IMG/VR virus record: IMGVR_UViG_3300010939_000103
DNA length: 42,509 bases
From: a virus
Strand: one strand, 5' to 3'
Part shown: positions 1-42,509 of the stretch, piece after piece
How positions within the stretch are numbered: position 1 is the first letter of the stretch
Layout: every line of letters starts with the position of its first letter
The notes under the pieces: model-generated
The model's input: only the letters and a program-made list of their open reading frames with translations
What the model was told of the DNA's origin: nothing
The model's database searches: none
Program-made: the position numbers and the translations under genes

Positions 1-105
1 ACGTCCTCAGCGCCAAGGCCCAACTCGACGATACCGTAGAACTGGAGGTGACCTACATAGGTGACCGCTCAGACATCCCAGAGTCCAAGGTCAACTGTCC
101 TGACT
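1..105. repeat. Direct terminal repeat, left copy (identical to 42405..42509)
   Basis: The first 105 nt (acgtcctcagcgcc...caactgtcctgact) recur exactly as the last 105 nt of the window. Confidence 0.97.
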
Positions 106-1098: not shown

Positions 1099-2088
1099 AT
1101 GCAGCAGTCCACAGCCCTGATAGTCCCTGAAAGGCGTCACTATCTTGTCCCTGCCAACATCAATCGCCTGCTAAAGGTGATAGATGCAATGACCAACGCC
1201 GGCGAAATCCGCAACGTGTTGGTCAAGGGTCCGCAAGGTAGTGGCAAGTCGGACCTAGTAACCCAGTTCGCAGCCACTAGAAAGCGACCGCTCGCAACGT
1301 TGGAGGTTGGGCGTCTGTCAGAGTCCACCCAAATCTTTGGACAGATGCAACTCCGCGATGGCAAAACCGTCTACGAGTCTGGCCTTTTCACGGAGGCCCT
1401 CCAGACCCCCCACGCAGTAATCCATCTTCAGGAAATCAACCGCCCAGAAACCGACAAGGCGCTCAACGCCATCTTCTCTGTACTGGACCCCACGTTCAGG
1501 AACATCTATATGGATGAAATGCACGCTACCATCAAGGTGGCTGAAGGCGTGACGTTCTTCGCAACCATGAACGAGGGCTTTGAGTTCATCGGCACCATGC
1601 CTCTCGACGCAGCGTTGGAGAACCGCTTTGCCATCAAGCTGAACCTCAGCTACCTTCCTCCTGAGCAAGAGCGTGGTCTCATAGCCATCCGCACAGGGTT
1701 AAACCCAGGCCTTACCGTTAGCCTGATTTCCATGATTACCAGAATCCGCAACAACCCCCAGGCTCCTATCACGGTAAGCATTCGAGACTCCCTAGCGATG
1801 GCAGAACTGATGGCCTATGGGCTAAGCGTGGCGGATGCCATCCGCACGGTGATAGGCTCCGACAAGGACAAACTAGAGTCTCTCCTTGCGACTGAACACA
1901 TGGCTGGTCACGACGTAAGCTTTGCCTCAGATGAGGCTTACGAGTTGATGTCACCTCCAGATGCCCGACCTGTGCAGATTACCACTGAGGGCTTTGGAAT
2001 AACTAGCCCCGCTAACACCTATGAAGGCTATAAGGGGCCAGTCGTTACTAGTGCTGATATTCCCCGCGACCAAATGAGGCTCTCCTAA
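1099..2088 (+). CDS. AAA+ ATPase, MoxR/CobS-like
   Basis: Walker A is GPQGSGKS and the Walker B-like segment is AVIHLQEINRPE. The ATG at 1099 lies downstream of P1 and of AAGGAGG (1081-1087). The track start at 1027 lies upstream of the promoter. Confidence 0.88.
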   Translation: MQQSTALIVPERRHYLVPANINRLLKVIDAMTNAGEIRNVLVKGPQGSGKSDLVTQFAATRKRPLATLEVGRLSESTQIFGQMQLRDGKTVYESGLFTEALQTPHAVIHLQEINRPETDKALNAIFSVLDPTFRNIYMDEMHATIKVAEGVTFFATMNEGFEFIGTMPLDAALENRFAIKLNLSYLPPEQERGLIAIRTGLNPGLTVSLISMITRIRNNPQAPITVSIRDSLAMAELMAYGLSVADAIRTVIGSDKDKLESLLATEHMAGHDVSFASDEAYELMSPPDARPVQITTEGFGITSPANTYEGYKGPVVTSADIPRDQMRLS

Positions 2089-4010
2089 TGACCACCCCAA
2101 CAAGCCTCACTGAACCCCTGTCCCATAACTGGAGGATAAATACCTCCGACATACCAGCCATAGAACTGGCCAATGCCCTGCGTGGACTTGCTAAGGTGGT
2201 TGGAATACTGGACAAGGACACCAAAGATGTGGTCTTTTCCACATCGTCCTTCAACTCCCATAAGCACGGCATAGTGGCTATAGACGCGGCCTATGCCCTA
2301 AAGAAACAGCCAATATCAGTAGCGGATTTTGATGTCCTCACAGGGCTAGCCGTCCACGAGGCTGGTCATACGGTAATTGATTCCCATAGAGTTGCCCACA
2401 CCGGGGACCTCGATAAGCAAGGCATTAACGTCAGCGACGACGAGATAACCATAGCCCACGTTTCCGCTGTTGGCGAGGATATCTATAACGACAACTATAT
2501 CCGTCGCCACCACCCAGTACCCTTCCGTTACATTCAACGAGCCCGGAGGGCCTACGGTGCCGACCAAAAGGACATCAACTGGGCTCGCTCCATGATAGCT
2601 TGGACCGCAACCGTGCTCTACGGCAAGCTACCTTACGATAAGACACCACCTCGCGTTATGCAAGCCCTGGCCATCCTTATGACCTATACATCAGACCTTT
2701 CATCCAGGGACATACGACCGGTATCAAGGGAGGTCATATACCAGCGAATCTACAATGACCTAAAGCCCCTGATAGAAGGAGAGCAAATCCGTAAGAAGCT
2801 ATCCTCCAAAGGTGCAGAGGTAGGCGACGAGCACAAGGAAACTTGGGAGGACAATCTTCAAGCGGATAACGCTGAGCAGGAGGTCTTTGACAGGCCAGAA
2901 GTTAAAGCCAACGAGCCGCCGGAGAAGGAGAATGCTGAGGAAGATGCTAGTGAACCTACCGCTGAAGGTCCTGATGGTGAGGGTTCTGGGATTCCGTCTA
3001 ATGAAGCTCCTCCCGAGGGGCCTAAGGGCAAAACTACACCTTCGGAAAACCCAGCAGGAGATGCAGACGATGCTGAGGAAGATGAGTTAGGCGATTCGGA
3101 GGAGGGAGAACAGGATGATAAGGACGTGGAAGCTGAACCACCTAGAGGAGTAGAACTTCTCAACTCTACCCATACCCCCATCGACAAGAAACTCCGCAAG
3201 GCCATCAAGGAAGCCTACGAAAGTGATGCCGAGGATATGACCCAGGACATACAGGATATCCTCGAGGAGTACGAAGTAGATAAGTCAGGGCTTCAAGAAC
3301 GCCTAGGCAAAGGTAGTCTCTCGGTAGTTTGGAGCCGGCCTAACCGCAAACCTAACTCTGCCTTCGACCCTAATCTCTATAGGCAGTTGGTTTGGGTCCA
3401 GCAAATCCGCAATACCCTAGGCAAGGAAATTTACCGCGCAGAACCTCAGGGCAGGGTGGATGCCCACCGCCTCTACCGCGCTCCCATAGACGGCAACGCT
3501 TTCAAGGTAACTAGACGAAAGCCTCGAAAGGACTTGGACCTCGTACTGCTACTTGATGCCTCAGGCTCCATGAACAGCGACGCTAACTCCATCTACGAAG
3601 CCGCGAGAGCCCTCTATAAAGCCCTACCCATGGCCAACGTGGTAACCTACAGTGCAATGGGCTCCAACGTTGACCTACAGCACGTGGCTCGTAAGGGTGA
3701 ACCCTTCAAGTCATTTGAATGTAACGGTGGTACTCCATCTGGGATGGCTCTACTAGCCACGGCCAAGATGTTCCCTAAGAGCCTCATTATCCACTTCACT
3801 GATGGCGGCAGCAACACCGACCTAAGACCCTCCGATGCCTTCCCCATCATCGCCAGGGAATTCCCAGAGGTCCAGATAGTGGATATTGTGCAGAGAGGCG
3901 CACGTGTGGAAAGCACATCGCCCAACGTAAGTAGGGTAAACATTACCTCACCCAACGAGTTTCCGGAGGTTTTGAAGAAGGCCTTGCGTCCCTGGTACCA
4001 AGCGGCATAA
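2088..4010 (+). CDS. HExxH (zincin-like) N-domain + acidic linker + C-terminal vWA domain protein (CobT / DUF2201-like partner of the AAA+ ATPase)
   Basis: 640 aa. The start overlaps the upstream stop (TAATG). The N-terminal part carries AVHEAGHTV. A long Asp/Glu/Pro-rich low-complexity stretch follows. The MIDAS motif reads LLLDASGSMNS, with downstream GGTPSG and FTDGGSN. Confidence 0.85.
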   Translation: MTTPTSLTEPLSHNWRINTSDIPAIELANALRGLAKVVGILDKDTKDVVFSTSSFNSHKHGIVAIDAAYALKKQPISVADFDVLTGLAVHEAGHTVIDSHRVAHTGDLDKQGINVSDDEITIAHVSAVGEDIYNDNYIRRHHPVPFRYIQRARRAYGADQKDINWARSMIAWTATVLYGKLPYDKTPPRVMQALAILMTYTSDLSSRDIRPVSREVIYQRIYNDLKPLIEGEQIRKKLSSKGAEVGDEHKETWEDNLQADNAEQEVFDRPEVKANEPPEKENAEEDASEPTAEGPDGEGSGIPSNEAPPEGPKGKTTPSENPAGDADDAEEDELGDSEEGEQDDKDVEAEPPRGVELLNSTHTPIDKKLRKAIKEAYESDAEDMTQDIQDILEEYEVDKSGLQERLGKGSLSVVWSRPNRKPNSAFDPNLYRQLVWVQQIRNTLGKEIYRAEPQGRVDAHRLYRAPIDGNAFKVTRRKPRKDLDLVLLLDASGSMNSDANSIYEAARALYKALPMANVVTYSAMGSNVDLQHVARKGEPFKSFECNGGTPSGMALLATAKMFPKSLIIHFTDGGSNTDLRPSDAFPIIAREFPEVQIVDIVQRGARVESTSPNVSRVNITSPNEFPEVLKKALRPWYQAA

Positions 4011-4798: not shown

Positions 4799-4827
4799 TT
4801 GACAAGCACTTCCCTCTGTGCTATAAT
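4799..4827 (+). promoter_or_regulatory. Consensus sigma70 promoter P2 (TTGACA-17-TATAAT)
   Basis: TTGACA is at 4799-4804 and TATAAT at 4822-4827. It shares the 11-mer TTGACAAGCAC with P1, and TGC precedes the -10. Confidence 0.75.
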
Positions 4828-16063: not shown

Positions 16064-16710
16064 ACGTTAATTGTTACTCCACCAACTCCTAATACTTCAG
16101 CTTGAGCATTGCCAGTATCGTTTGAATACTTGGCCTCGGCCACACGGGCACCTGAGGAGACATCGCGGCTACCTGATAGAATCCTCGTAACTATGCCTGT
16201 TGTCACAGACGCGACCTGCACCCCATCTAATAGAATCTCAAAGACATAGCCAGAACCCCCGACTGAGTTGTGACCAAGACAAAAAGCCCCAGCGCATAGC
16301 CTAACGGTCTTTGTAGGGTTAAACGTTCTTGAGGCGGAGAGTGTTCCGGCGTTCGCTACCCACGTCCAAACAGCACCACCAAATGTAACGGCGCCCTCCC
16401 TCTTGGCAGTCAGGGCTTGGTCCTCTGCAAACGGATGGGTGTGCGTCCCCGCTGCGCCTTGTGTTGCGCCTGAGCCTAGCGTCCTGACTCCAGCAACGTT
16501 TGCTGCCGGGTCCGCCGACAGAATGATATCATAGGTAGTCCCATTATCCCGATGGATTTCTCCTTCCTTACCTACGTCCGTCAGAATGTATATTCTACCC
16601 GCAAACCCAGCGGCAGGTATATTCGCCAATAGACCAAACTGTACGCCCAAGGCGTTCAGCCTATCAGGCGTCATTTCCATAGCGCTCGTTACAAACCCTT
16701 GGTTAGTCAT
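16060..16710 (-). CDS. Tail fibre / receptor-binding protein
   Basis: 216 aa. IPAAGFAGRIYILTD and VRTLGSGATQGAAGTHTHPF (a His-box) are typical fibre motifs. Residues 16-91 are paralogous to the C-terminus of the upstream 973-aa protein. Confidence 0.8.
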   Translation of the reverse strand: MTNQGFVTSAMEMTPDRLNALGVQFGLLANIPAAGFAGRIYILTDVGKEGEIHRDNGTTYDIILSADPAANVAGVRTLGSGATQGAAGTHTHPFAEDQALTAKREGAVTFGGAVWTWVANAGTLSASRTFNPTKTVRLCAGAFCLGHNSVGGSGYVFEILLDGVQVASVTTGIVTRILSGSRDVSSGARVAEAKYSNDTGNAQAEVLGVGGVTINV

Positions 16711-19631
16711 TAGTGCGTATGGTCCCCCGCTGCTATTTGCGTTGCACCTGAGCCAAGCGTCCTTATACTGGCCACTGCTGCCGCCTGGTCCTTCCTAATT
16801 ACAGTGGTCCAGGCGGAAGCCGAGTCCACAGATACCTCCTCATCGGTTGACGAGGACCACATTCTACCGGCCTCACCGGCCGCAGGTCTAGCTGCGTCTG
16901 TCCCTCGTTGGGTTAACATTCCATTCAGTTTATCCGCAGTTAAGTCACCCTTGTCCGCCCATAAGCCTCCAGCAGCGGTGCCGGATAAGGCAGTAAAGAA
17001 GCCTGCTAAGGCCCGGTCTATATGAGCCAGCATCGACGAGGTTAAGGCCACTCTGTTGCCAGTCACGTATATTGTGCCAGTCCCACCATTAGCCGTTAAT
17101 TCCAGCATCGTAGCCATCTTAATCTTGGCTGTGTTCGTGGGAGCCGTGCGGTTCTCGTTAAGCTCGGTGGCATAGTCGGGGTCCGACACCGTAGCCACGT
17201 CTATATCGTGGGTAGCTAGCACCACGTCGCCCGAGTCTAGGAACTGAATCCTCAACACCACCTTGGCGTCGATTAAGGCCAGGGGCTTTACCCTTGCTTC
17301 CGCTGACCACACCTCAGTGGCAGCAGCAGGAGTAACTACCTGGTCAACGATATTCTGGTCACCTGATGTACCCCCAGTGGCTACATTCTTAACCACTCCA
17401 AGGTGGCCATGCTCCATATCAGCATGTTCATCGGTAACTCTAGCTATGCTACCAGTAGCACCTACTGTAAGCGTCCAACCAGTGGTATCGGCATCAAAGT
17501 CCTGATTGGTAAGCTTATTCGCCACTGGGGCCTTATAACCCCTAGTATGGATAAGGGTATCAATCTCCTCAGCAGCAAAGCTCATAGCTGCATCGAGTAA
17601 CCTCAACTCCGTGAGTGCGGACACAGGTGGAGGCTCCTGTCTACCAGCCTTCCTCCGTAGCTCTATCAGCATATGGGAGAGAGTATGGGAGCCTTCTCCT
17701 AGAACCACATGGTAGCCAAAGACTTCGCCACCATGGAGAAACATCTGTAGTTCCAACACTAGCAGTTCTTCGGCGGTAAGGCCAAGCTTAGTATTGGTGA
17801 CAGCTATAACCTGACCCTGCTCAATACCATCCTTGGTAAAGGAACAGATGAATCTAGTCTTGTTGCTGTTCTCCCTGAGGAAGGCCATGGCCACGTCTAT
17901 GGCAATATCCTTGTCCTCGATGGAAGGCTCAACAAGCACCTTCTTGTACTCACGTCCTCCAGCAGCGTCTATGGCAGTCTCATCCTTATGAAGGATTCTG
18001 AGAGGCCCTACATACCTGCCCTTCACTCGGAAGGCGTTGTTAGCAAAGTTAGGTGGAGCAGAGTTCCACTCTAAGCGACCTGTACCTGGATTCCACAGTA
18101 CATCAATACTACCACCAAGCGTATCCTGGTTCTCGATACCTACAGTTCGTGAGGTCCAAACTGGGGTACCATCAGTTCCAGTATTCTCCTCCACCACCAG
18201 TATAGTAGAGGTACTAGGTGGACGTGTAAGTGGGCTGGTACCATCCTGTTCACCTATATGAAAGAGCGTCCTCACACCATCAGCAAAGTAGATGTCAACA
18301 ACGTCAGCGGAGAGAACTCTCGCACCTACAATCTCCACTACGTTATAGGTCCCAAACTCGTTAACCTGCTGGAAGTCAGAGTATGGGAAAGTGGCAGAAT
18401 CGTCTGGATTATCGGATAGCTCAAAGGACGCCACAGTTCTTTCCCGCTCTTTGTAGATAAGAACCTTAGCAGGCGTAACATCCCAGATGAAGCCCGTTAT
18501 CTGGGTGATAATTTCCATGACCTGACGAATGGTAGTACCCCTAAAGTAGAGGGCATCAATGGTCCTACCTAGCTCTACCTGAGTGGTATCTATCTCTGTC
18601 AGGTTACCTTCTGACGCAGAGAAGGCATCTTGAATGGTGGCTTGGTCCGTGCTGTTGATATAGTCCTTGGTAACACTGGCCCTATCAGCCAGCACCTTCC
18701 AGTCCTGTGCAGTGATGTGGATTCTGCGACCTAGACCGAAGGGCAGCAGGGTAGTCTCTGCAACTATACCACCAAAGTGCTTGGTGCCCGTACTAACCCA
18801 TGCTGCTCCAGTGATGGCACCTGTGTTAGCATTGCTGGTGGCATCAGCGGTAGTAGTGCCGGTGTTCTCGTCCATCTTCCAGTAGCCCGCCAGTCCTGCC
18901 TCAGTACCCGCCAGGAGCTTACGGTAGTTGTCGAGAATCTCAGAGGCGGTACGAATATCGGACCACAGACGTACCTCGTCTATGAGGCCGTCCCAGGTCA
19001 GGGCAAAGGAGAAGTCGTTACCTATAAAGAGAGGCTTGGTTACATCTGAGCCTCTGGTTCCTACGGGGGTTGCGGCTTCGGTAAGAGTGGTGAGTATTCC
19101 ATTTATGTACAGAAGGGGATTATTGGCCACATCGTCGTTATTGTAGGTGACAGCGATATGAGTCCATGCATTCAGCGGGATTATTGCATCTACTTGCCAG
19201 GAACCGTTTGCGGTAGTAAAGGCTTGCCTGAACCTCAGTTGGGCATTGTTGCCGGTTAGGTTTTGAATCCAAATCTGCCAGCCAAGGTCTTTGTAAAGTA
19301 TTCTCCCTTGATTATTCTCGCCAATAGTATTGGGCTTGACCCACATCTCGATGGTACCGCCACCATCGAATATGTTTAGTATGGCAGCATCATCGGCAAT
19401 TTCAACGCGGTCGTCAACCCCATCGAAGTCTAGTCCGTAAAGTGGAGGAGTATCGAGGTCCTCGATGTATACGTCCTTGCCCATAGCAACGGTGATGTTA
19501 TTACCCGTATCATCAAGGACAATATTAGCCACGTCGATAGCTGGCGGACCATTGCGGACCAACTCCCAGTCCTCTTGAAGGAGTAAGTTGGTGCGATCCA
19601 CACCACCAACGACTAGCCTTAGTTTAGCCAC
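16710..19631 (-). CDS. Large tail/baseplate protein with LamG (concanavalin-like lectin) domain and fibre-adaptor C-terminus
   Basis: 973 aa, immediately downstream of the tape measure gene. The LamG-like block runs DFDGVDDRVEI...WTHIAVTYN...LYINGIL...GLIDEVRLWS. The C-terminus is IRTLGSGATQIAAGDHTH. Confidence 0.85.
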   Translation of the reverse strand: MAKLRLVVGGVDRTNLLLQEDWELVRNGPPAIDVANIVLDDTGNNITVAMGKDVYIEDLDTPPLYGLDFDGVDDRVEIADDAAILNIFDGGGTIEMWVKPNTIGENNQGRILYKDLGWQIWIQNLTGNNAQLRFRQAFTTANGSWQVDAIIPLNAWTHIAVTYNNDDVANNPLLYINGILTTLTEAATPVGTRGSDVTKPLFIGNDFSFALTWDGLIDEVRLWSDIRTASEILDNYRKLLAGTEAGLAGYWKMDENTGTTTADATSNANTGAITGAAWVSTGTKHFGGIVAETTLLPFGLGRRIHITAQDWKVLADRASVTKDYINSTDQATIQDAFSASEGNLTEIDTTQVELGRTIDALYFRGTTIRQVMEIITQITGFIWDVTPAKVLIYKERERTVASFELSDNPDDSATFPYSDFQQVNEFGTYNVVEIVGARVLSADVVDIYFADGVRTLFHIGEQDGTSPLTRPPSTSTILVVEENTGTDGTPVWTSRTVGIENQDTLGGSIDVLWNPGTGRLEWNSAPPNFANNAFRVKGRYVGPLRILHKDETAIDAAGGREYKKVLVEPSIEDKDIAIDVAMAFLRENSNKTRFICSFTKDGIEQGQVIAVTNTKLGLTAEELLVLELQMFLHGGEVFGYHVVLGEGSHTLSHMLIELRRKAGRQEPPPVSALTELRLLDAAMSFAAEEIDTLIHTRGYKAPVANKLTNQDFDADTTGWTLTVGATGSIARVTDEHADMEHGHLGVVKNVATGGTSGDQNIVDQVVTPAAATEVWSAEARVKPLALIDAKVVLRIQFLDSGDVVLATHDIDVATVSDPDYATELNENRTAPTNTAKIKMATMLELTANGGTGTIYVTGNRVALTSSMLAHIDRALAGFFTALSGTAAGGLWADKGDLTADKLNGMLTQRGTDAARPAAGEAGRMWSSSTDEEVSVDSASAWTTVIRKDQAAAVASIRTLGSGATQIAAGDHTH

Positions 19632-25734: not shown

Positions 25735-26583
25735 CTACCCTTGTGCCACCAAGCCGATTTTGTACAGCCTTGCAATCTGAGAGGCATTTAGCTCCTGCTG
25801 CGTGAAAAAGGGGCCAATTGGCCCGCCAAGCATCCGGCCATCAAAGAATTGCTGTTTCGCTGGCGTGGCGTTGAATCTCGCGGCAAGCCCAAGTGTTGAC
25901 GTACCATTCTCCATCGCTAGGTAGGTTCCACTGTTTGTGGCGGTTGACGCAAGAACAACACCGTTTTGGTAGAGAGTGACGCCATTCATTGCCGACGCGC
26001 CGCCAGAACCATCATAGGTCATTACGAAAAAGGCTAGTTGTCCTTGGGTAATGGCATCATCTGAGGTTCTATTGGCGGTGGTGGGTACGTTATCGTCCCT
26101 GACGAGCAATTCAAGCGTGTCGTTTGTTGTGAGGTAAAAGAGCCATTCCTGAATGGCGTGGTTGTCATCCCATTTGGAAAGAATAACCCGGTTGTTCGCC
26201 GTGTCGGTTATATTGAGCCAAGCCCCCACGCTGAACCCTTCATTGGCTCCATCATTGCGAGTCCAAAAGTCCGCATCGGGGGAATCGGCTTCTTCATCCG
26301 TGCCATTAAATGCGATGTCGGGGAGCCACAACTGATTGTGCCGATGTCGTGGGGGAGTATCAAAAGAGGCCACTCCCTCAGAATAGGTGAACACCAACCC
26401 ATCGCCTGCACCTTGACCCACAGTGGTGACTTGCGTGCGTCCAGCGTTCTCGTGGTTCCGGTCGCCGAGAGGAACGATGGCATAGGCCGTGCCGCCCGAG
26501 CCGAGTATGGCCCTAATTTCCCGGAGGGTATTGGTGCGGCTGTGAGCGCCTTGTAGGCTGGGACGCCGGATTAGGCTAACCAT
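25735..26583 (-). CDS. LamG (concanavalin A-like lectin) domain virion protein
   Basis: 282 aa. FSVGAWLN...ILSKWD...EWLFYL...LAFFVMTYDG...LYQNGVV...FFDGRMLGGPIG...LNASQIARLYKIG follows the Laminin_G_3 pattern. Confidence 0.72.
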   Translation of the reverse strand: MVSLIRRPSLQGAHSRTNTLREIRAILGSGGTAYAIVPLGDRNHENAGRTQVTTVGQGAGDGLVFTYSEGVASFDTPPRHRHNQLWLPDIAFNGTDEEADSPDADFWTRNDGANEGFSVGAWLNITDTANNRVILSKWDDNHAIQEWLFYLTTNDTLELLVRDDNVPTTANRTSDDAITQGQLAFFVMTYDGSGGASAMNGVTLYQNGVVLASTATNSGTYLAMENGTSTLGLAARFNATPAKQQFFDGRMLGGPIGPFFTQQELNASQIARLYKIGLVAQG

Positions 26584-36747: not shown

Positions 36748-36822
36748 AGAACGCCCCGGGTAGCCTAAGTAGAACATATGTTCGCAGGAAAGTAGCACAG
36801 ATGGCCTAAGGGCCTTTACCAC

Positions 36823-36844
36823 ATCTTTATCATATCTTTATCAT
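36823..36844. repeat. Perfect tandem duplication of ATCTTTATCAT (2 x 11 nt) abutting the P3 -35
   Basis: The two copies occupy 36823-36833 and 36834-36844. TTGACA starts at 36851. Confidence 0.9.
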
Positions 36845-36850
36845 TGCCTA

Positions 36851-36879
36851 TTGACATTGACCCAAGGACGTGGTACAAT
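36851..36879 (+). promoter_or_regulatory. Sigma70 promoter P3 (TTGACA-17-TACAAT, extended -10 TGg)
   Basis: TTGACA is at 36851-36856 and TACAAT at 36874-36879, preceded by TGG. The RBS AAGGAGGG and the ATG at 36945 lie downstream. Confidence 0.7.
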
Positions 36880-36944: not shown

Positions 36945-37562
36945 ATGGTTACAGAGACTGCCCAAGGGTTGAAGGACAAGCTGGAAAACCTAAGGGCTGC
37001 AATCACACAGGCACTGGCGGCGGGGGAGAATGCAGACGCAGTGATGGTGGAGTACACCGCCCTGCTATCCAAGTACCAGACAGCGCAGAGGTCGGAGAAT
37101 GCCGTCGCCATCGACGAGGCCAAGAGCCAAGTCCTGCGCGGCATCGGGGGCCTCATCGATGGGTCTGGGCTTGAGACGCTGATGGGCGAGTCGGTGGTCG
37201 CCATCAACTGGTCCAAAACCGTTGAGGCGGGCAAGGAACCGGTTTTCGCACTCAACGTCAACAGCAAGCGTGGCCGCGCGAGTGGTAGCGCGACTGGCCG
37301 CAACGGCGGTGGTCGCAGCACTAAGCACTTTGAGGTCAATGGCAAGGTGATGGATGCACGCGAGTTCGTGCTCGCCCATGCCCCCGAGGACATCCTCGAT
37401 GCCTCACTGGTGAAGCGCGGCGAGGGCAAGTGGATTACCAAGCCAATCCACATCGACAAGACCGTTGAGCACCTGAAGGGTCAGGGCGTCACAGTCAACG
37501 AGGTGGCAGCGCCAGCCGCGACGCCACCGGCCGAGAAGCCGAAGGTGACAGCGACCAAGTAA
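36945..37562 (+). CDS. GC-rich early protein: N-terminal helical/coiled-coil region, Gly/Arg/Ser linker, small C-terminal domain
   Basis: 205 aa with AAGGAGGG upstream. Codons are visibly GC3-rich, which produces long antisense shadow ORFs. The linker reads SKRGRASGSATGRNGGGRS. Confidence 0.75.
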   Translation: MVTETAQGLKDKLENLRAAITQALAAGENADAVMVEYTALLSKYQTAQRSENAVAIDEAKSQVLRGIGGLIDGSGLETLMGESVVAINWSKTVEAGKEPVFALNVNSKRGRASGSATGRNGGGRSTKHFEVNGKVMDAREFVLAHAPEDILDASLVKRGEGKWITKPIHIDKTVEHLKGQGVTVNEVAAPAATPPAEKPKVTATK

Positions 37563-37576
37563 TTGGCGAAACGCGG

Positions 37577-37602
37577 GGCAGGGGAAACTTGCCACCCCTG
37601 CC
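37577..37602 (+). terminator. GC-rich hairpin after the early gene (weak U-tract)
   Basis: GGCAGGGG (37577-37584) pairs with CCCCTGCC (37595-37602) around a 10-nt loop. It is followed by tcgtgtct, not a clean T-run. Confidence 0.4.
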
Positions 37603-37612
37603 TCGTGTCTGC

Positions 37613-37733
37613 GAGGGATGAGCGCCTCGCACTGATGAGCCAGCTCACGGAGGGTGCGATGGAATAACGCGGAACGGTAACCTCGGAGGTTGAGGCCGAG
37701 CCGCACCACAACCCACATAGAGCAACCATCCCT
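37613..37733. repeat. Structured element B, related to element A
   Basis: AGGGATG (37614-37620) pairs with CATCCCT (37727-37733), enclosing 106 nt. It shares GAGGGATG, GGAGGTTGAG, GCACCA(t)CACAACC and CAACCATCCCT with A in the same order. Confidence 0.45.
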
Positions 37734-37825: not shown

Positions 37826-38048
37826 CCTTTCCTTGTGTGTGGTTACGCTACCACTAGCGTTGGTTCGCTCCGCGCCCACACGGCAGCACTTGACCTCGTG
37901 GCAGCTATTTCGCAGCGAGGTTTACTAGCGAGAGGAAATAGAACCTTCACCTCTTCGTCCTCTAGTGCTCTTTTGCGCCTTGCCTTAGGGGTGTGGTTTG
38001 ATGCGTTGATGCGATGATGCGCGCGAGGGAGAAGCTAGCAGTAGTGGA

Positions 38049-38077
38049 TTGACAAAACAGTTATTTTGTGGTATAAT
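38049..38077 (+). promoter_or_regulatory. Consensus sigma70 promoter P4 (TTGACA-17-TATAAT, extended -10 TGg)
   Basis: TTGACA is at 38049-38054 and TATAAT at 38072-38077, preceded by TGG. Confidence 0.75.
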
Positions 38078-39671: not shown

Positions 39672-39814
39672 TTGTCCATGTAGTGATGGAATTCGATATC
39701 GACGCTTATACCGAGGAAGATGCAGTTGAGGAAGTGGAGAGTTGGATTCCCTACGAGTATTTCCTCAACTGCAACATAGAGGTGAAAGGAGAAGCTAATG
39801 GTAACAAAGCCTGA
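39668..39814 (+). CDS. Small early protein (48 aa), RFEI...EEA family-like
   Basis: The start couples to the upstream stop by an ATGA overlap. The translation begins MIVHVVMEFDIDAYTEEDAVEEVESWI.... Confidence 0.5.
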   Translation: MIVHVVMEFDIDAYTEEDAVEEVESWIPYEYFLNCNIEVKGEANGNKA

Positions 39815-40226
39815 AAGGTTCTCTGAGCTTTCCCGTCAAGTGCTATCAAATACAGAGGATGAGGCTAGGAACCTTAACCACATAAACATTGACACAGCCC
39901 ATATCCTGCTGGCCATGCTAAAGATACCTGCCTGCACCTCTGCATATATCCTGGCCAGCCTAGGCGTGGACCTAGCTGGGCTAGTCAAGGCCATCAAGAG
40001 TGACGCAGGGAAGGGCCATAGGCCAGTAGAGGTCTCAGGCTTAAGTCTGCTATCCAAGAATGCCATCACCCTGGCCGTAAAAGAAGCCTCTCAGTCAGGC
40101 ACAATTCTTATCAACCACCTACTTATTGGTATAATGCTGGAAGGTGAAGGAACCGCTGCACACGTACTGTCAGAAGCTGGCATAACAGTAGGTGAAGTCA
40201 GGGAGGCTACAAGGAGTCTCAAATGA
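39798..40226 (+). CDS. Stand-alone Clp N-terminal (ClpA/B/C R-domain) double-repeat protein
   Basis: 142 aa. Repeat 1 is RFSELSRQVLSNTEDEARNLNHINIDTAHILLAML. Repeat 2 is LSKNAITLAVKEASQSGTILINHLLIGIMLEGEGTAAHVLSEAGI. Together they match the ClpC NTD pattern RFT..A..vl..A..eA..lgh..igTEHiLLGl..EGeGvAa..L. No AAA module follows. Confidence 0.85.
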   Translation: MVTKPERFSELSRQVLSNTEDEARNLNHINIDTAHILLAMLKIPACTSAYILASLGVDLAGLVKAIKSDAGKGHRPVEVSGLSLLSKNAITLAVKEASQSGTILINHLLIGIMLEGEGTAAHVLSEAGITVGEVREATRSLK

Positions 40227-40396
40227 CAAGCCAGATTCCTAGTATGATGCCAGGCCAAGACCCCTACACGCAAGAGGAACTGGATGCTCTGTACCGCTGG
40301 ATAGCAGAGGCATCAGAGGATGACCCAGGCGAAGAACTGGAACCAGAAATGCTAGATGAATGGGGGGAGGCACAAAGATATGGCCGAGGAGACTAA
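40223..40396 (+). CDS. Small highly acidic protein (57 aa)
   Basis: The start couples by an ATGA overlap, with AAGGAG 6 nt upstream. The translation includes ...QEELDALYRWIAEASEDDPGEELEPEMLDEWGEA.... Confidence 0.55.
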   Translation: MTSQIPSMMPGQDPYTQEELDALYRWIAEASEDDPGEELEPEMLDEWGEAQRYGRGD

Positions 40397-40718
40397 GGAG
40401 TATACCAGCAATGATTTCGGGGAGGAGCGCGAGAGGCTCTTTGAATTGGCCACCGTGCTCATAAAGAGAGGTCTCTCTCAGGAGGAGTTTGAAGAGGCCA
40501 AGCTATTAGCTGCTCTCGTTGGTCCTCAGGAAGGCCCATTCGTGGAGCCGGAGGATATGCACCGTACCACAGTCTCACTACCTACCTCCACGATGCGGCG
40601 AATCCAGCAGCTTAGAGGCGCTCGTATGTACGAGGAAGGCCAGAGTATCACCCTAGATGAGGTCCTGCGGGAACTCGTCACTACCGGCATGGAGCACACC
40701 GCCGATGCTCAACCTTAA
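40380..40718 (+). CDS. Ribbon-helix-helix (CopG/Arc-like) DNA-binding protein
   Basis: The ATG at 40380 follows GGAGG. The C-terminal half HRTTVSLPTSTMRRIQQLRGAR...ITLDEVLRELV fits a beta-strand/helix/helix RHH. Confidence 0.65.
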   Translation: MAEETKEYTSNDFGEERERLFELATVLIKRGLSQEEFEEAKLLAALVGPQEGPFVEPEDMHRTTVSLPTSTMRRIQQLRGARMYEEGQSITLDEVLRELVTTGMEHTADAQP

Positions 40719-40932
40719 CTCGGACGAACTTCACGAAGCCATACACTTCCAAGTAGATTGTCCTGGGTTAGGGGATTTCCTCGAGGAGGTTCATCCAACA
40801 CGGCGTACCCAAATCCATGCAGGGTTCCAGGAGTACGAGTGCGGTATCTGTAAGCTTAGGTGGTGGATACCCAAGGACGTGTTCATAGATATGAGGCTGG
40901 AGCCCTTCTCAGAGTTTGACGTACACCCTTAA
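40705..40932 (+). CDS. Hypothetical small protein
   Basis: 75 aa from the internal ATG. The protein contains CPGLG...CGIC. Confidence 0.5.
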   Translation: MLNLNSDELHEAIHFQVDCPGLGDFLEEVHPTRRTQIHAGFQEYECGICKLRWWIPKDVFIDMRLEPFSEFDVHP

Positions 40933-42395: not shown

Positions 42396-42509
42396 TGCAA
42401 GGCTACGTCCTCAGCGCCAAGGCCCAACTCGACGATACCGTAGAACTGGAGGTGACCTACATAGGTGACCGCTCAGACATCCCAGAGTCCAAGGTCAACT
42501 GTCCTGACT
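42395..42509 (+). CDS. 5' part of the wrap-around zinc-ribbon ORF (continues at 3..212)
   Basis: The ATG at 42395 is preceded by GGCGGAGGTTG. The reading frame runs through the terminal repeat. Confidence 0.6.
   Translation, partial: MQGYVLSAKAQLDDTVELEVTYIGDRSDIPESKVNCPD
42405..42509. repeat. Direct terminal repeat, right copy (identical to 1..105)
   Basis: It matches 1..105 exactly over all 105 nt. Confidence 0.97.

What the first reader, a model, noticed from the sequence alone, without database searches (positions are those of the whole stretch)
39798..40718. Stand-alone ClpC-type N-domain protein followed by an acidic 57-aa protein and an RHH regulator
The 142-aa protein is a full double-repeat Clp N-terminal domain with no AAA+ module. 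In ClpC/ClpB-type unfoldases this domain docks adaptors and tagged substrates, for example MecA-type adaptors and phospho-arginine marks. A free copy made early in infection could act as a decoy, protecting phage proteins from degradation, or could redirect host Clp activity. It is translationally coupled (ATGA) to a very acidic 57-aa protein and then to a ribbon-helix-helix DNA-binding protein. Small effectors followed by an autoregulator is the arrangement typical of phage anti-defence operons, such as acr-aca-type loci.
Basis: partly seen in the sequence, partly recalled or inferred. Interest (0 to 1): 0.7.

Follow-up and report, generated by a model that had tools for sequence, protein, structure and literature searches.

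The report
Phage copy of ClpC's docking domain
A phage early gene encodes only the N-terminal docking domain of a host-type ClpC unfoldase, but both phospho-arginine pockets are mutated away, so it is probably a tag-blind mimic that interferes with host ClpC rather than the tag or adaptor decoy first proposed.

Summary
The main observation holds. ORF 39798-40226 is a complete, stand-alone ClpC-type N-domain: Pfam Clp_N E 2.7e-16, PDB ClpC1/ClpC N-domains E about 3e-16, AlphaFold pLDDT 92.6, TM 0.91 to Mtb ClpC1 NTD. It overlaps by ATGA a 57-aa protein of net charge -13.

The third ORF is only a possible RHH. Its Pfam score is below threshold and it has no homologues.

The window is a complete phage genome of about 42.4 kb. 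The gene lies in a small-ORF operon behind a consensus sigma-70 promoter.

The closest relatives I found are the N-domains of full-length Chloroflexota ClpC (43% identity, collinear from Met1). This suggests gene capture.

The fold core and the K85-equivalent lysine are kept. Both phospho-arginine pockets are lost: E32 to A34, T105/E106 to I105/N106 with a 2-residue deletion. Almost all cellular and viral relatives keep these residues. A pArg or MecA-pocket decoy is therefore disfavoured. A pArg-blind mimic of the ClpC N-domain remains the best untested reading.

AAA-less Clp_N proteins recur in viral contigs (47 of 74 hits; PHROG 35667, function unknown), so the class is not new. The acr-aca analogy has little support.

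Interest is moderate.

The parts
38049..38077 (+). Consensus sigma-70-type promoter (TTGACA-17-TGgTATAAT, 12/12) that heads the small-ORF operon containing the Clp_N gene
   Evidence: One of four such promoters on the + strand (36851, 38049, 1040, 4799). Function is inferred from the consensus match and position only.
39721..39773 (+). Stable RNA hairpin (16-bp stem) 24 nt upstream of the Clp_N start codon, inside the upstream small ORF
   Evidence: 13-nt perfect inverted repeat; dG -28.1 kcal/mol, z -4.3, 0 of 200 shuffles fold as well. No T-run follows, so it is not an intrinsic terminator. Role unknown.
39798..40226 (+). Stand-alone ClpC-type N-domain protein, 142 aa, with both pArg pockets lost (A34, I105/N106) and the K85-equivalent K87 kept
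40108..40135 (+). Weaker candidate internal promoter (TTATCA-16-TGgTATAAT, 10/12) inside the Clp_N coding sequence, 88 nt upstream of the 57-aa ORF
   Evidence: It shares TGGTATAAT with P38049 and P1040. The 9-mer TGGTAYAAT occurs 5 times in the window against 0.53 expected. This may still be chance, because the motif also encodes the conserved L-I-G-I-M segment.
40223..40396 (+). 57-aa acidic protein (net -13) whose start overlaps the Clp_N stop (ATGA); no homologue found
40380..40718 (+). 112-aa acidic protein (net -11) with no homologue: two N-terminal helices plus a possible ribbon-helix-helix in residues about 62-105 (nt 40563-40694)
   Evidence: The RHH assignment is below threshold.
40705..40932 (+). 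Next small ORF (75 aa, Cys/His-containing), overlapping the previous one by 14 nt. It shows that the operon continues past the putative RHH gene

Best explanation
The gene looks like a captured and remodelled copy of the first ~145 codons of a host-type clpC gene. It is expressed as a free N-domain from a host-takeover-style early operon. The fold and the groove-side lysine (K87, equivalent to ClpC K85) are kept. Both phospho-arginine pockets have been lost. The most likely function is a pArg-blind mimic of the ClpC N-domain. It would compete with the host unfoldase's own N-domains for whatever docks on the remaining surfaces. Those partners could be groove-binding adaptors or substrates, or the N-domain docking sites on ClpC's AAA1 ring and M-domain. 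Either way, ClpCP proteolysis would change early in infection. The translationally coupled acidic 57-aa protein is probably its partner, standing in for the variable C-terminal tails that other viral Clp_N proteins carry. Shown: fold, lack of an AAA+ module, closest relatives, pocket loss, gene arrangement. Inferred: early timing, target, direction of the effect, partnership with the 57-aa protein.
For: Domain identity and ClpC type. The structural ranking is ClpC NTDs first (TM up to 0.91), then ClpA, ClpT, ClpB and ClpC2. Origin: the best genomic relatives found are N-domains of full-length 825-833-aa ClpC from Chloroflexota MAGs. They are collinear from Met1 to the end of the domain, 43% identical, and share the unusual HLLIGIM segment. 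Selective remodelling: of 53 columns at least 75% conserved in relatives, 33 are kept (core, Gly, His). The 20 that changed cluster at pocket 1 (T7>S, G30>D, E32>A) and pocket 2 (T81>S, P82>L, G104>L, T105>I, E106>N, 2-residue deletion). K85 is kept. Among 452 domain matches in the best 150 database hits, position 34 is E in 381 and A in 11. Position 106 is E in 283, and N is not among the six commonest residues. Short viral Clp_N proteins keep E at both positions wherever both are aligned. The intact ORF, confident fold and tight packing with good Shine-Dalgarno sites argue for a functional protein. It lies behind a perfect consensus promoter, among small ORFs and upstream of the replication genes. 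Precedents: phage SPO1 Gp53 targets ClpC (PMC6873191). Free Clp_N proteins such as ClpC2 compete for N-domain ligands (PMC10030653). K85 and the hydrophobic groove are a docking site separate from the pArg pockets (PMC12583610).
Against: There is no experimental or comparative evidence for any interaction. The protein and both neighbours are singletons, so no co-variation or conservation test is possible. The host is unknown. The Chloroflexota link comes from a pattern-limited, row-capped scan. Some ClpC residues that anchor the N-domain in the resting state are also lost (R9>L11, R122>H122). The cyclomarin-contact residues F2, F80 and E89 are P, L and T here, so the groove surface has diverged too. 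Loss of conserved functional residues is also what relaxed selection would produce.
Confidence: 0.35

Rival explanations
1. One reading: a decoy that soaks up phospho-arginine marks or MecA-type adaptors and so shields phage proteins from ClpCP.
For: The fold is that of the ClpC N-domain that binds pArg and MecA (5hbn, 2y1r). Thr33 and the pocket Ser9 and Ser83 are conservative or retained.
Against: Both pocket glutamates are replaced (A34, N106). Pocket 2 also loses Thr105 and two residues. E32A/E106A is the pArg-pocket mutant used in ClpC, and MecA is described as binding both pArg pockets (PMC12583610). Nearly all relatives, cellular and viral, keep these residues.
Confidence: 0.07
2. A phage-internal protein-binding module. 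The Clp_N fold serves as a general docking scaffold for a phage partner (the 57-aa protein, or the phage's own MoxR-vWA pair) with no link to host ClpC.
For: In IMG/VR, 47 of 74 Clp_N hits are short AAA-less proteins with diverse, unrelated C-terminal tails of 55-145 aa. This fits a reusable module. The ATGA coupling to the 57-aa protein suggests co-expression in fixed proportion. vWA-MoxR conflict systems occasionally carry ClpN repeats (PMC7159879), and this phage has a MoxR-vWA pair about 3.2 kb downstream.
Against: No MoxR or vWA gene lies within 4 kb of the other viral Clp_N genes. In this phage the MoxR-vWA pair has its own promoter. The 57-aa protein shows no similarity to the viral tails. 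The close, collinear match to a bona fide ClpC N-domain points to host mimicry.
Confidence: 0.25
3. An acr-aca-like anti-defence cassette: small effectors (Clp_N and/or the 57-aa protein) followed by an RHH autorepressor.
For: The order is small proteins, then a possible RHH. A candidate promoter at 40108-40135 lies just upstream of the 57-aa and 112-aa genes.
Against: The RHH is below threshold, and the protein is acidic overall, net -11. No terminator follows, and the operon runs on through many more small ORFs. No inverted repeat overlaps a promoter; the only one is a 10-nt imperfect repeat downstream at 40161-40194. Nothing matched in PHROGs, NCBIfam or Pfam. No anti-defence (Acr) library was available.
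Confidence: 0.1
4. A ClpC2-like sensor arrangement: the Clp_N protein binds a ligand or partner and modulates the neighbouring DNA-binding protein.
For: ClpC2 couples a Clp_N-like domain to DNA binding and responds to ligands (PMC13345244 and PMC10030653). Here a Clp_N gene lies two genes upstream of a possible RHH.
Against: ClpC2 keeps one pArg site and the cyclomarin residues, and carries its own DNA-binding region. None of that is present here. The sequence match to ClpC2 is partial and weak, E 1e-5 to 1e-4. The RHH is unproven.
Confidence: 0.06
5. A decaying fragment of a captured host gene with no function.
For: Conserved functional residues are lost. The protein is a singleton.
Against: At 43% identity to the nearest source-like sequence, the ORF is still intact and starts and ends exactly at the domain borders. 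It keeps the fold core, models at pLDDT 92.6, has a good Shine-Dalgarno site, and is coupled to its neighbours.
Confidence: 0.1

Closest known systems
N-terminal domain of ClpC / ClpC1 (B. subtilis, S. aureus, M. tuberculosis; closest found here: Chloroflexota ClpC)
   Same: Same double-repeat eight-helix fold (TM 0.84-0.91). Identity is 31-34% to solved structures and 43% to a Chloroflexota ClpC, with the same start and end as the domain. The K85-equivalent lysine is kept.
   Different: No linker, AAA1, M-domain or AAA2. Both pArg pockets are lost. R9, R122 and the cyclomarin-contact residues F2, F80 and E89 are not kept.
Phage-encoded AAA-less Clp_N proteins (PHROG 35667, e.g. mycobacteriophage Myrna gp251; 47 short proteins in IMG/VR), function unknown
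   Same: A viral stand-alone Clp_N domain at the N-terminus: PHROG E 4.8e-13, 32% identity to gp251.
   Different: Those proteins are 194-290 aa with a variable C-terminal tail, and they keep both pocket glutamates wherever aligned. This one is the bare 142-aa domain, lacks both glutamates, and is followed by a separate coupled 57-aa gene.
Mycobacterial ClpC2 (partial ClpC1 homologue; repressor and antibiotic/pArg sponge)
   Same: A free Clp_N-type domain that competes with ClpC1's N-domain for ligands (PMC10030653, PMC13345244).
   Different: ClpC2 has an extra N-terminal DNA-binding region, keeps one pArg site and the cyclomarin residues, and is a cellular protein. Sequence similarity is only partial (E 1e-5; TM 0.80, 20% identity).
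Plant ClpT1/ClpT2
   Same: A stand-alone double Clp-N protein that works with the Clp protease (4y0b/4y0c; TM 0.79-0.82).
   Different: 22-24% identity. From my own knowledge, it acts on assembly of the chloroplast ClpPR core. No evidence for that role here.
SPO1 Gp53, a phage adaptor-like modulator of ClpCP
   Same: A product of a phage host-takeover module that targets ClpC (PMC6873191). This is the same strategy proposed here.
   Different: An unrelated 25-kDa protein that binds ClpC, rather than a copy of a ClpC domain.

Membership tests
Clp_N domain (Pfam PF02861; Hsp100/Clp N-domain fold) | Score above the Pfam gathering cutoff, with both repeats present | tested here: met
   59.9 bits against 20.7, two stretches. 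Full-length match to solved N-domains.
Clp_N domain (Pfam PF02861; Hsp100/Clp N-domain fold) | Pseudo-twofold bundle of eight helices | tested here: met
   AlphaFold pLDDT 92.6 with eight helices. TM 0.91, rmsd 1.5 A to ClpC1 NTD.
ClpC / class I Hsp100 unfoldase | AAA+ modules (AAA1, M-domain, AAA2) following the N-domain | tested here: not met
   The ORF stops at residue 142. Downstream ORFs have no AAA+ hits.
pArg-receptor N-domain (ClpC type) | Pocket glutamates equivalent to E32 and E106, with the adjacent Thr | tested here: not met
   A34 and N106; T105 becomes I105 with a 2-residue deletion. Role of these residues: PMC12583610.
pArg-receptor N-domain (ClpC type) | Measured binding of pArg | not testable with these tools
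   Needs ITC or MST with purified protein.
ClpC2-type repressor/sponge | N-terminal DNA-binding region plus C-terminal Clp_N domain with one pArg site and the F2/F80/E89-type antibiotic site | tested here: not met
   No N-terminal extension. The residues are P5, L82 and T91. Weak partial match to ClpC2 chains.
PHROG 35667 (Myrna gp251-like viral Clp_N proteins) | Match to the family profile over its whole length (235 positions) | tested here: inconclusive
   E 4.8e-13, but only profile positions 13-147 are matched. The C-terminal part is absent.
Ribbon-helix-helix (RHH_1, CopG/Arc/MetJ) for the 112-aa protein | Score above the Pfam gathering cutoff | tested here: not met
   14.3 bits against 20.5, E 0.04, and only profile positions 1-21 of 39. 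hhalign probability 1.9%.
Ribbon-helix-helix (RHH_1, CopG/Arc/MetJ) for the 112-aa protein | Strand-helix-helix topology with a G-x-S/T turn before helix B | tested here: inconclusive
   The predicted secondary structure has E64-65, H69-78 and H92-105, and the sequence has EGQS before helix B. Model pLDDT is only 54.
acr-aca-type anti-defence operon | Own promoter with an operator repeat, a known Acr or Aca family member, and a regulator that closes the unit | tested here: inconclusive
   There is only a 10/12 promoter-like site inside the Clp_N gene. No repeat overlaps it. No family hits. The operon continues downstream. No Acr library was available.

The most novel reading that the evidence does not exclude
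The protein is a trans-acting, pArg-insensitive N-domain that docks on host ClpC's own N-domain anchoring sites (the AAA1 D356/E359-type site via K87, and the M-domain). By doing so it locks or unlocks the ClpC resting state. That would be a viral allosteric regulator built from a piece of its target, with the acidic 57-aa protein as a cofactor. It would be the first functional assignment for the recurrent AAA-less Clp_N proteins of phages, and the first host-takeover factor suggested for a phage likely to infect Chloroflexota.
Probability: 0.15. Interest if true: 0.75.

Novelty: new variant of a known kind. Interest (0 to 1): 0.45.

Why it matters
ClpC's N-domain is the control hub of a major bacterial protease and a drug target. 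Phages are known to target ClpCP with an unrelated adaptor-like protein (SPO1 Gp53). AAA-less Clp_N proteins turn out to be recurrent in viral contigs, but I found no assigned function for them. This copy is a natural separation-of-function variant: fold and K85 side kept, both pArg pockets removed. It could show which N-domain surface phages exploit, and it gives a compact reagent for probing pArg-independent control of ClpC. If it is only a generic binding module or a relic, it is an ordinary early gene of unknown function.

Tried and rejected
- **Homologues of the three proteins.** The word-indexed searches found only the proteins themselves. The exhaustive search of 1.8 billion representatives found no Clp_N relative above about 41% identity. 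Its top ranks were multi-repeat Clp_N proteins whose scores are summed over several domains.
- **Conservation in related phages.** Megablast to phage records found nothing. IMG/VR and one MAG contig share only structural genes. The vWA protein has no IMG/VR relatives. The other two contigs carrying the gene are identical or differ by 5 bases in 20 kb. No selection test is therefore possible.
- **Host assignment.** There are no tRNAs. Capsid and polymerase relatives are spread over many host phyla at about 30-34% identity. No endolysin was recognised. Only the Chloroflexota affinity of the Clp_N domain remains.
- **Gene fission.** I tested whether the 57-aa protein is a split-off version of the C-terminal tail of other viral Clp_N proteins. 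There is no significant similarity (best E 0.014-0.05) and the tails differ from one another.
- **MoxR-vWA partnership.** These genes do not co-occur near other viral Clp_N genes.
- **RHH tests.** PDB sequence search found nothing. hhalign against a hand-made RHH alignment, with sequences recalled from memory, gave 1.9%.
- **Viral structure library.** BFVD gave no significant match.
- **ClpP-like head protease link.** No Pfam hit.
Full report
**Setting.** The 42,509-base window begins and ends with the same 105 bases, so it is a complete circular or terminally redundant phage genome of about 42.4 kb at 52% G+C. The minus strand from 15.3 to 36.1 kb carries the structural genes: large terminase, Mu-type portal, a 958-aa protein with a head-protease match, major head protein and minor tail protein. 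The plus strand runs from about 36.9 kb, across the ends, to 15.3 kb. It carries a long series of small ORFs, then a MoxR-type AAA_5 ATPase, a vWA protein, an AAA_25 helicase-like protein, an AAA_24 protein, a DNA methylase, MazG, a family A DNA polymerase and a dCMP deaminase. Four plus-strand sites match the sigma-70 consensus at 11-12 of 12 positions with an extended -10. Their first hexamers start at 36851, 38049, 1040 and 4799. The finding lies in the unit headed by the 38049 promoter, among about 20 tightly packed small ORFs. That early, host-takeover-like position is an inference from layout, not a measurement.

**The observation.** ORF 39798-40226 encodes 142 residues. Pfam Clp_N scores 59.9 bits against a cutoff of 20.7, with both repeats. 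The best PDB sequence matches are all N-domains of ClpC1 or ClpC, E about 3e-16 over residues 6-137. An AlphaFold model built on 24 homologous domains has mean pLDDT 92.6 and eight helices. It superposes on the M. tuberculosis ClpC1 N-domain at TM 0.91 and rmsd 1.5 A. ClpC-type domains rank first, followed by ClpA, ClpT, ClpB and ClpC2. There is no AAA+ module in the ORF or in its neighbours. The stop codon overlaps the start of ORF 40223-40396 as ATGA. That 57-residue protein has 16 acidic and 3 basic residues. It is among the most acidic proteins in the operon, but several neighbours also have pI 4.0-4.8. The third ORF ends at 40718. Gene callers on two independent assemblies start it at 40380, behind a G-rich Shine-Dalgarno site, giving 112 residues.

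**The 'RHH'.** Pfam RHH_1 matches only the strand and the start of helix A, at E 0.14 for the whole protein and 0.04 for the C-terminal fragment. Both are below the gathering score. There is no PDB, PHROG or NCBIfam match and no homologue in 5.8 billion clusters. A single-sequence AlphaFold model is of low confidence (pLDDT 54). It does predict two N-terminal helices followed by strand-helix-helix, and the sequence has an EGQS turn where RHH proteins have G-x-S/T. hhalign against a small RHH alignment that I assembled from memory found the right register but only 1.9% probability. I treat the RHH as possible, not established. The protein is acidic overall (net -11).

**Where the Clp_N gene came from.** No protein above about 41% identity exists among 1.8 billion representatives. 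The top-ranked hits are multi-repeat Clp_N proteins whose scores are summed over several domains. A pattern-based scan of one genome per species returned, as its best hits, almost only Chloroflexota: Dehalococcoidia, Chloroflexia, Anaerolineae, Caldilineales, Limnocylindria and Thermomicrobiales. Actinomycetota and others followed at lower scores. The two best hits are the first 140-145 residues of ordinary full-length ClpC proteins of 833 and 825 aa. The best is 43% identical to the phage protein, collinear from Met1 to the domain end, and shares the unusual HLLIGIM segment. The simplest reading is capture of the 5' end of a clpC gene from a Chloroflexota-like host, followed by divergence. 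The host assignment is therefore tentative.

**What changed and what did not.** I took the 53 alignment columns that are at least 75% conserved in 25 relatives (24 database domains plus B. subtilis ClpC recalled from memory). The phage protein keeps 33 of them. These are mostly core hydrophobic residues, glycines and the two histidines.
- The 20 differences cluster at the two pArg pockets. In B. subtilis numbering, pocket 1 has T7>S, G30>D and E32>A.
- Pocket 2 has T81>S, P82>L, G104>L, T105>I and E106>N, with a two-residue deletion just before.
- E32A/E106A is the pArg-pocket double mutant used in ClpC, and T7 also belongs to pocket 1 (PMC12583610). A conserved pocket Thr is essential for pArg binding in ClpC2 (PMC13345244).
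- Across 452 domain matches in the 150 best database proteins, position 34 is Glu in 381 and Ala in 11. Position 106 is Glu in 283, and Asn is not among the six commonest residues.
- K85 is kept as K87. In ClpC this lysine bridges the N-domain to AAA1, and all ClpC1-targeting cyclic peptides and the adaptor MdfA contact it.
- Other anchors are not kept: R9>L11 and R122>H122. The cyclomarin residues F2, F80 and E89 are P5, L82 and T91.

A decoy for pArg marks is disfavoured. So is MecA-type docking, because the cited paper describes MecA as binding both pArg pockets. What remains of the ClpC-like surface is the groove/K85 side. In ClpC that side binds unfolded substrate, MdfA/YjbA and cyclic peptides, and it anchors the N-domain to AAA1. 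My best explanation is a pArg-blind mimic of the ClpC N-domain that competes for those contacts (confidence 0.35). Two precedents make the strategy plausible: SPO1 Gp53 targets ClpC, and ClpC2 acts as a competitor pool for N-domain ligands. Nothing here shows an interaction.

**How unusual is it?** Stand-alone Clp_N proteins are not new in viruses.
- The protein matches PHROG 35667 (unknown function) at E 4.8e-13. It is 32% identical to mycobacteriophage Myrna gp251, a 235-aa protein annotated 'Clp family protein'.
- A scan of IMG/VR found 74 contigs with Clp_N relatives. Of these, 47 encode complete proteins under 300 aa, with the domain at the N-terminus and a tail of 55-145 residues.
- The tails are unrelated to one another and to the 57-aa protein.
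- These viral proteins keep Glu at both pocket positions wherever both are aligned: 36 have both, and 38 of 38 aligned second repeats have Glu. The search pattern itself required one TEH motif.

The window's protein is thus a minimal, pocket-less variant of a recurrent but uncharacterised viral class. The separately encoded, translationally coupled 57-aa protein may play the part of the tail. That is an inference only.

**Rivals.**
- A phage-internal docking module (0.25) fits the variable tails. It also fits a published note that vWA-MoxR conflict systems sometimes carry ClpN repeats (PMC7159879). However, no MoxR or vWA gene lies near the other viral Clp_N genes, and the phage's own pair has a separate promoter.
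- The acr-aca reading (0.1) has one point in its favour: a 10/12 promoter-like site at 40108-40135 inside the Clp_N gene. It shares TGGTATAAT with two of the strong promoters, and the 9-mer TGGTAYAAT occurs 5 times against 0.53 expected. Against it, the RHH is unproven, no repeat overlaps the site, no terminator follows, and the operon continues.
- A ClpC2-like sensor pairing (0.06) and a decaying relic (0.1) are less likely, for the reasons given in their entries.

**Limits.** All three proteins are singletons, and the only other contigs carrying them are essentially identical. Conservation, co-variation and selection tests were therefore impossible. Complex prediction could not be run. The function remains an inference from the anatomy of one sequence.

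**Verdict.** I class it as a new variant of a known kind, of moderate interest.

Noticed in passing
window 37564-37649 (+): Type II hammerhead ribozyme (Rfam RF02276, 40 bits against a gathering score of 37). The CGAAAC, GUC and CUGAUGA core elements are present. It starts two bases after the stop of the 205-aa ORF 36945-37562, between the 36851 and 38049 promoters.
   Followed up: partly
window 1-105 and 42405-42509: Exact 105-base direct terminal repeat, so the window is a complete circular or terminally redundant phage genome of about 42.4 kb.
   Followed up: yes
window 36851-36879, 38049-38077, 1040-1068, 4799-4827 (+): Four near-perfect sigma-70 consensus promoters (11-12 of 12) with an extended -10. 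The last two share TTGACAAGCAC.
   Followed up: partly
window 36812-36844 and 37997-38021 (+): Short tandem repeats just upstream of two strong promoters: ATCTTTATCAT two to three times, abutting the -35 of the 36851 promoter, and TTGATGCG three times, about 30 nt upstream of the -35 of the 38049 promoter. These are candidate operator or UP-like elements.
   Followed up: no
window 39721-39773 (+): A 16-bp RNA hairpin (dG -28.1 kcal/mol, z -4.3) inside the upstream small ORF, ending 24 nt before the Clp_N start codon. No T-run follows. It could be a processing, stability or translation-control element.
   Followed up: partly
window 1099-2088 and 2088-4010 (+): A phage-encoded MoxR-type AAA_5 ATPase (weak bpMoxR match) directly followed by a 640-aa protein with a CoxE-type vWA domain at its C-terminal end. 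The pair has its own consensus promoter, and an AAA_25 helicase-like gene follows. vWA-MoxR pairs are described as conflict systems in PMC7159879.
   Followed up: partly
window 16710-19631 and 25735-26583 (-): Two structural-module proteins carry concanavalin-A-like Laminin_G_3 domains (E 2.6e-21 and 5e-11). They are probably receptor-binding or decoration proteins.
   Followed up: no
loci L095-L168 (IMG/VR): 47 of 74 viral contigs with Clp_N relatives encode short AAA-less proteins: a Clp_N domain plus a diverse 55-145-aa tail. Many are on contigs of 50-500 kb. This looks like an uncharacterised, recurrent viral protein class.
   Followed up: partly
search of 1.8 billion representatives, P0002-P0150: The top-scoring cellular relatives are proteins of 300-1,700 aa that contain 2-11 tandem Clp_N domains and, judging by length and hit positions, often no AAA+ module.
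   Followed up: no
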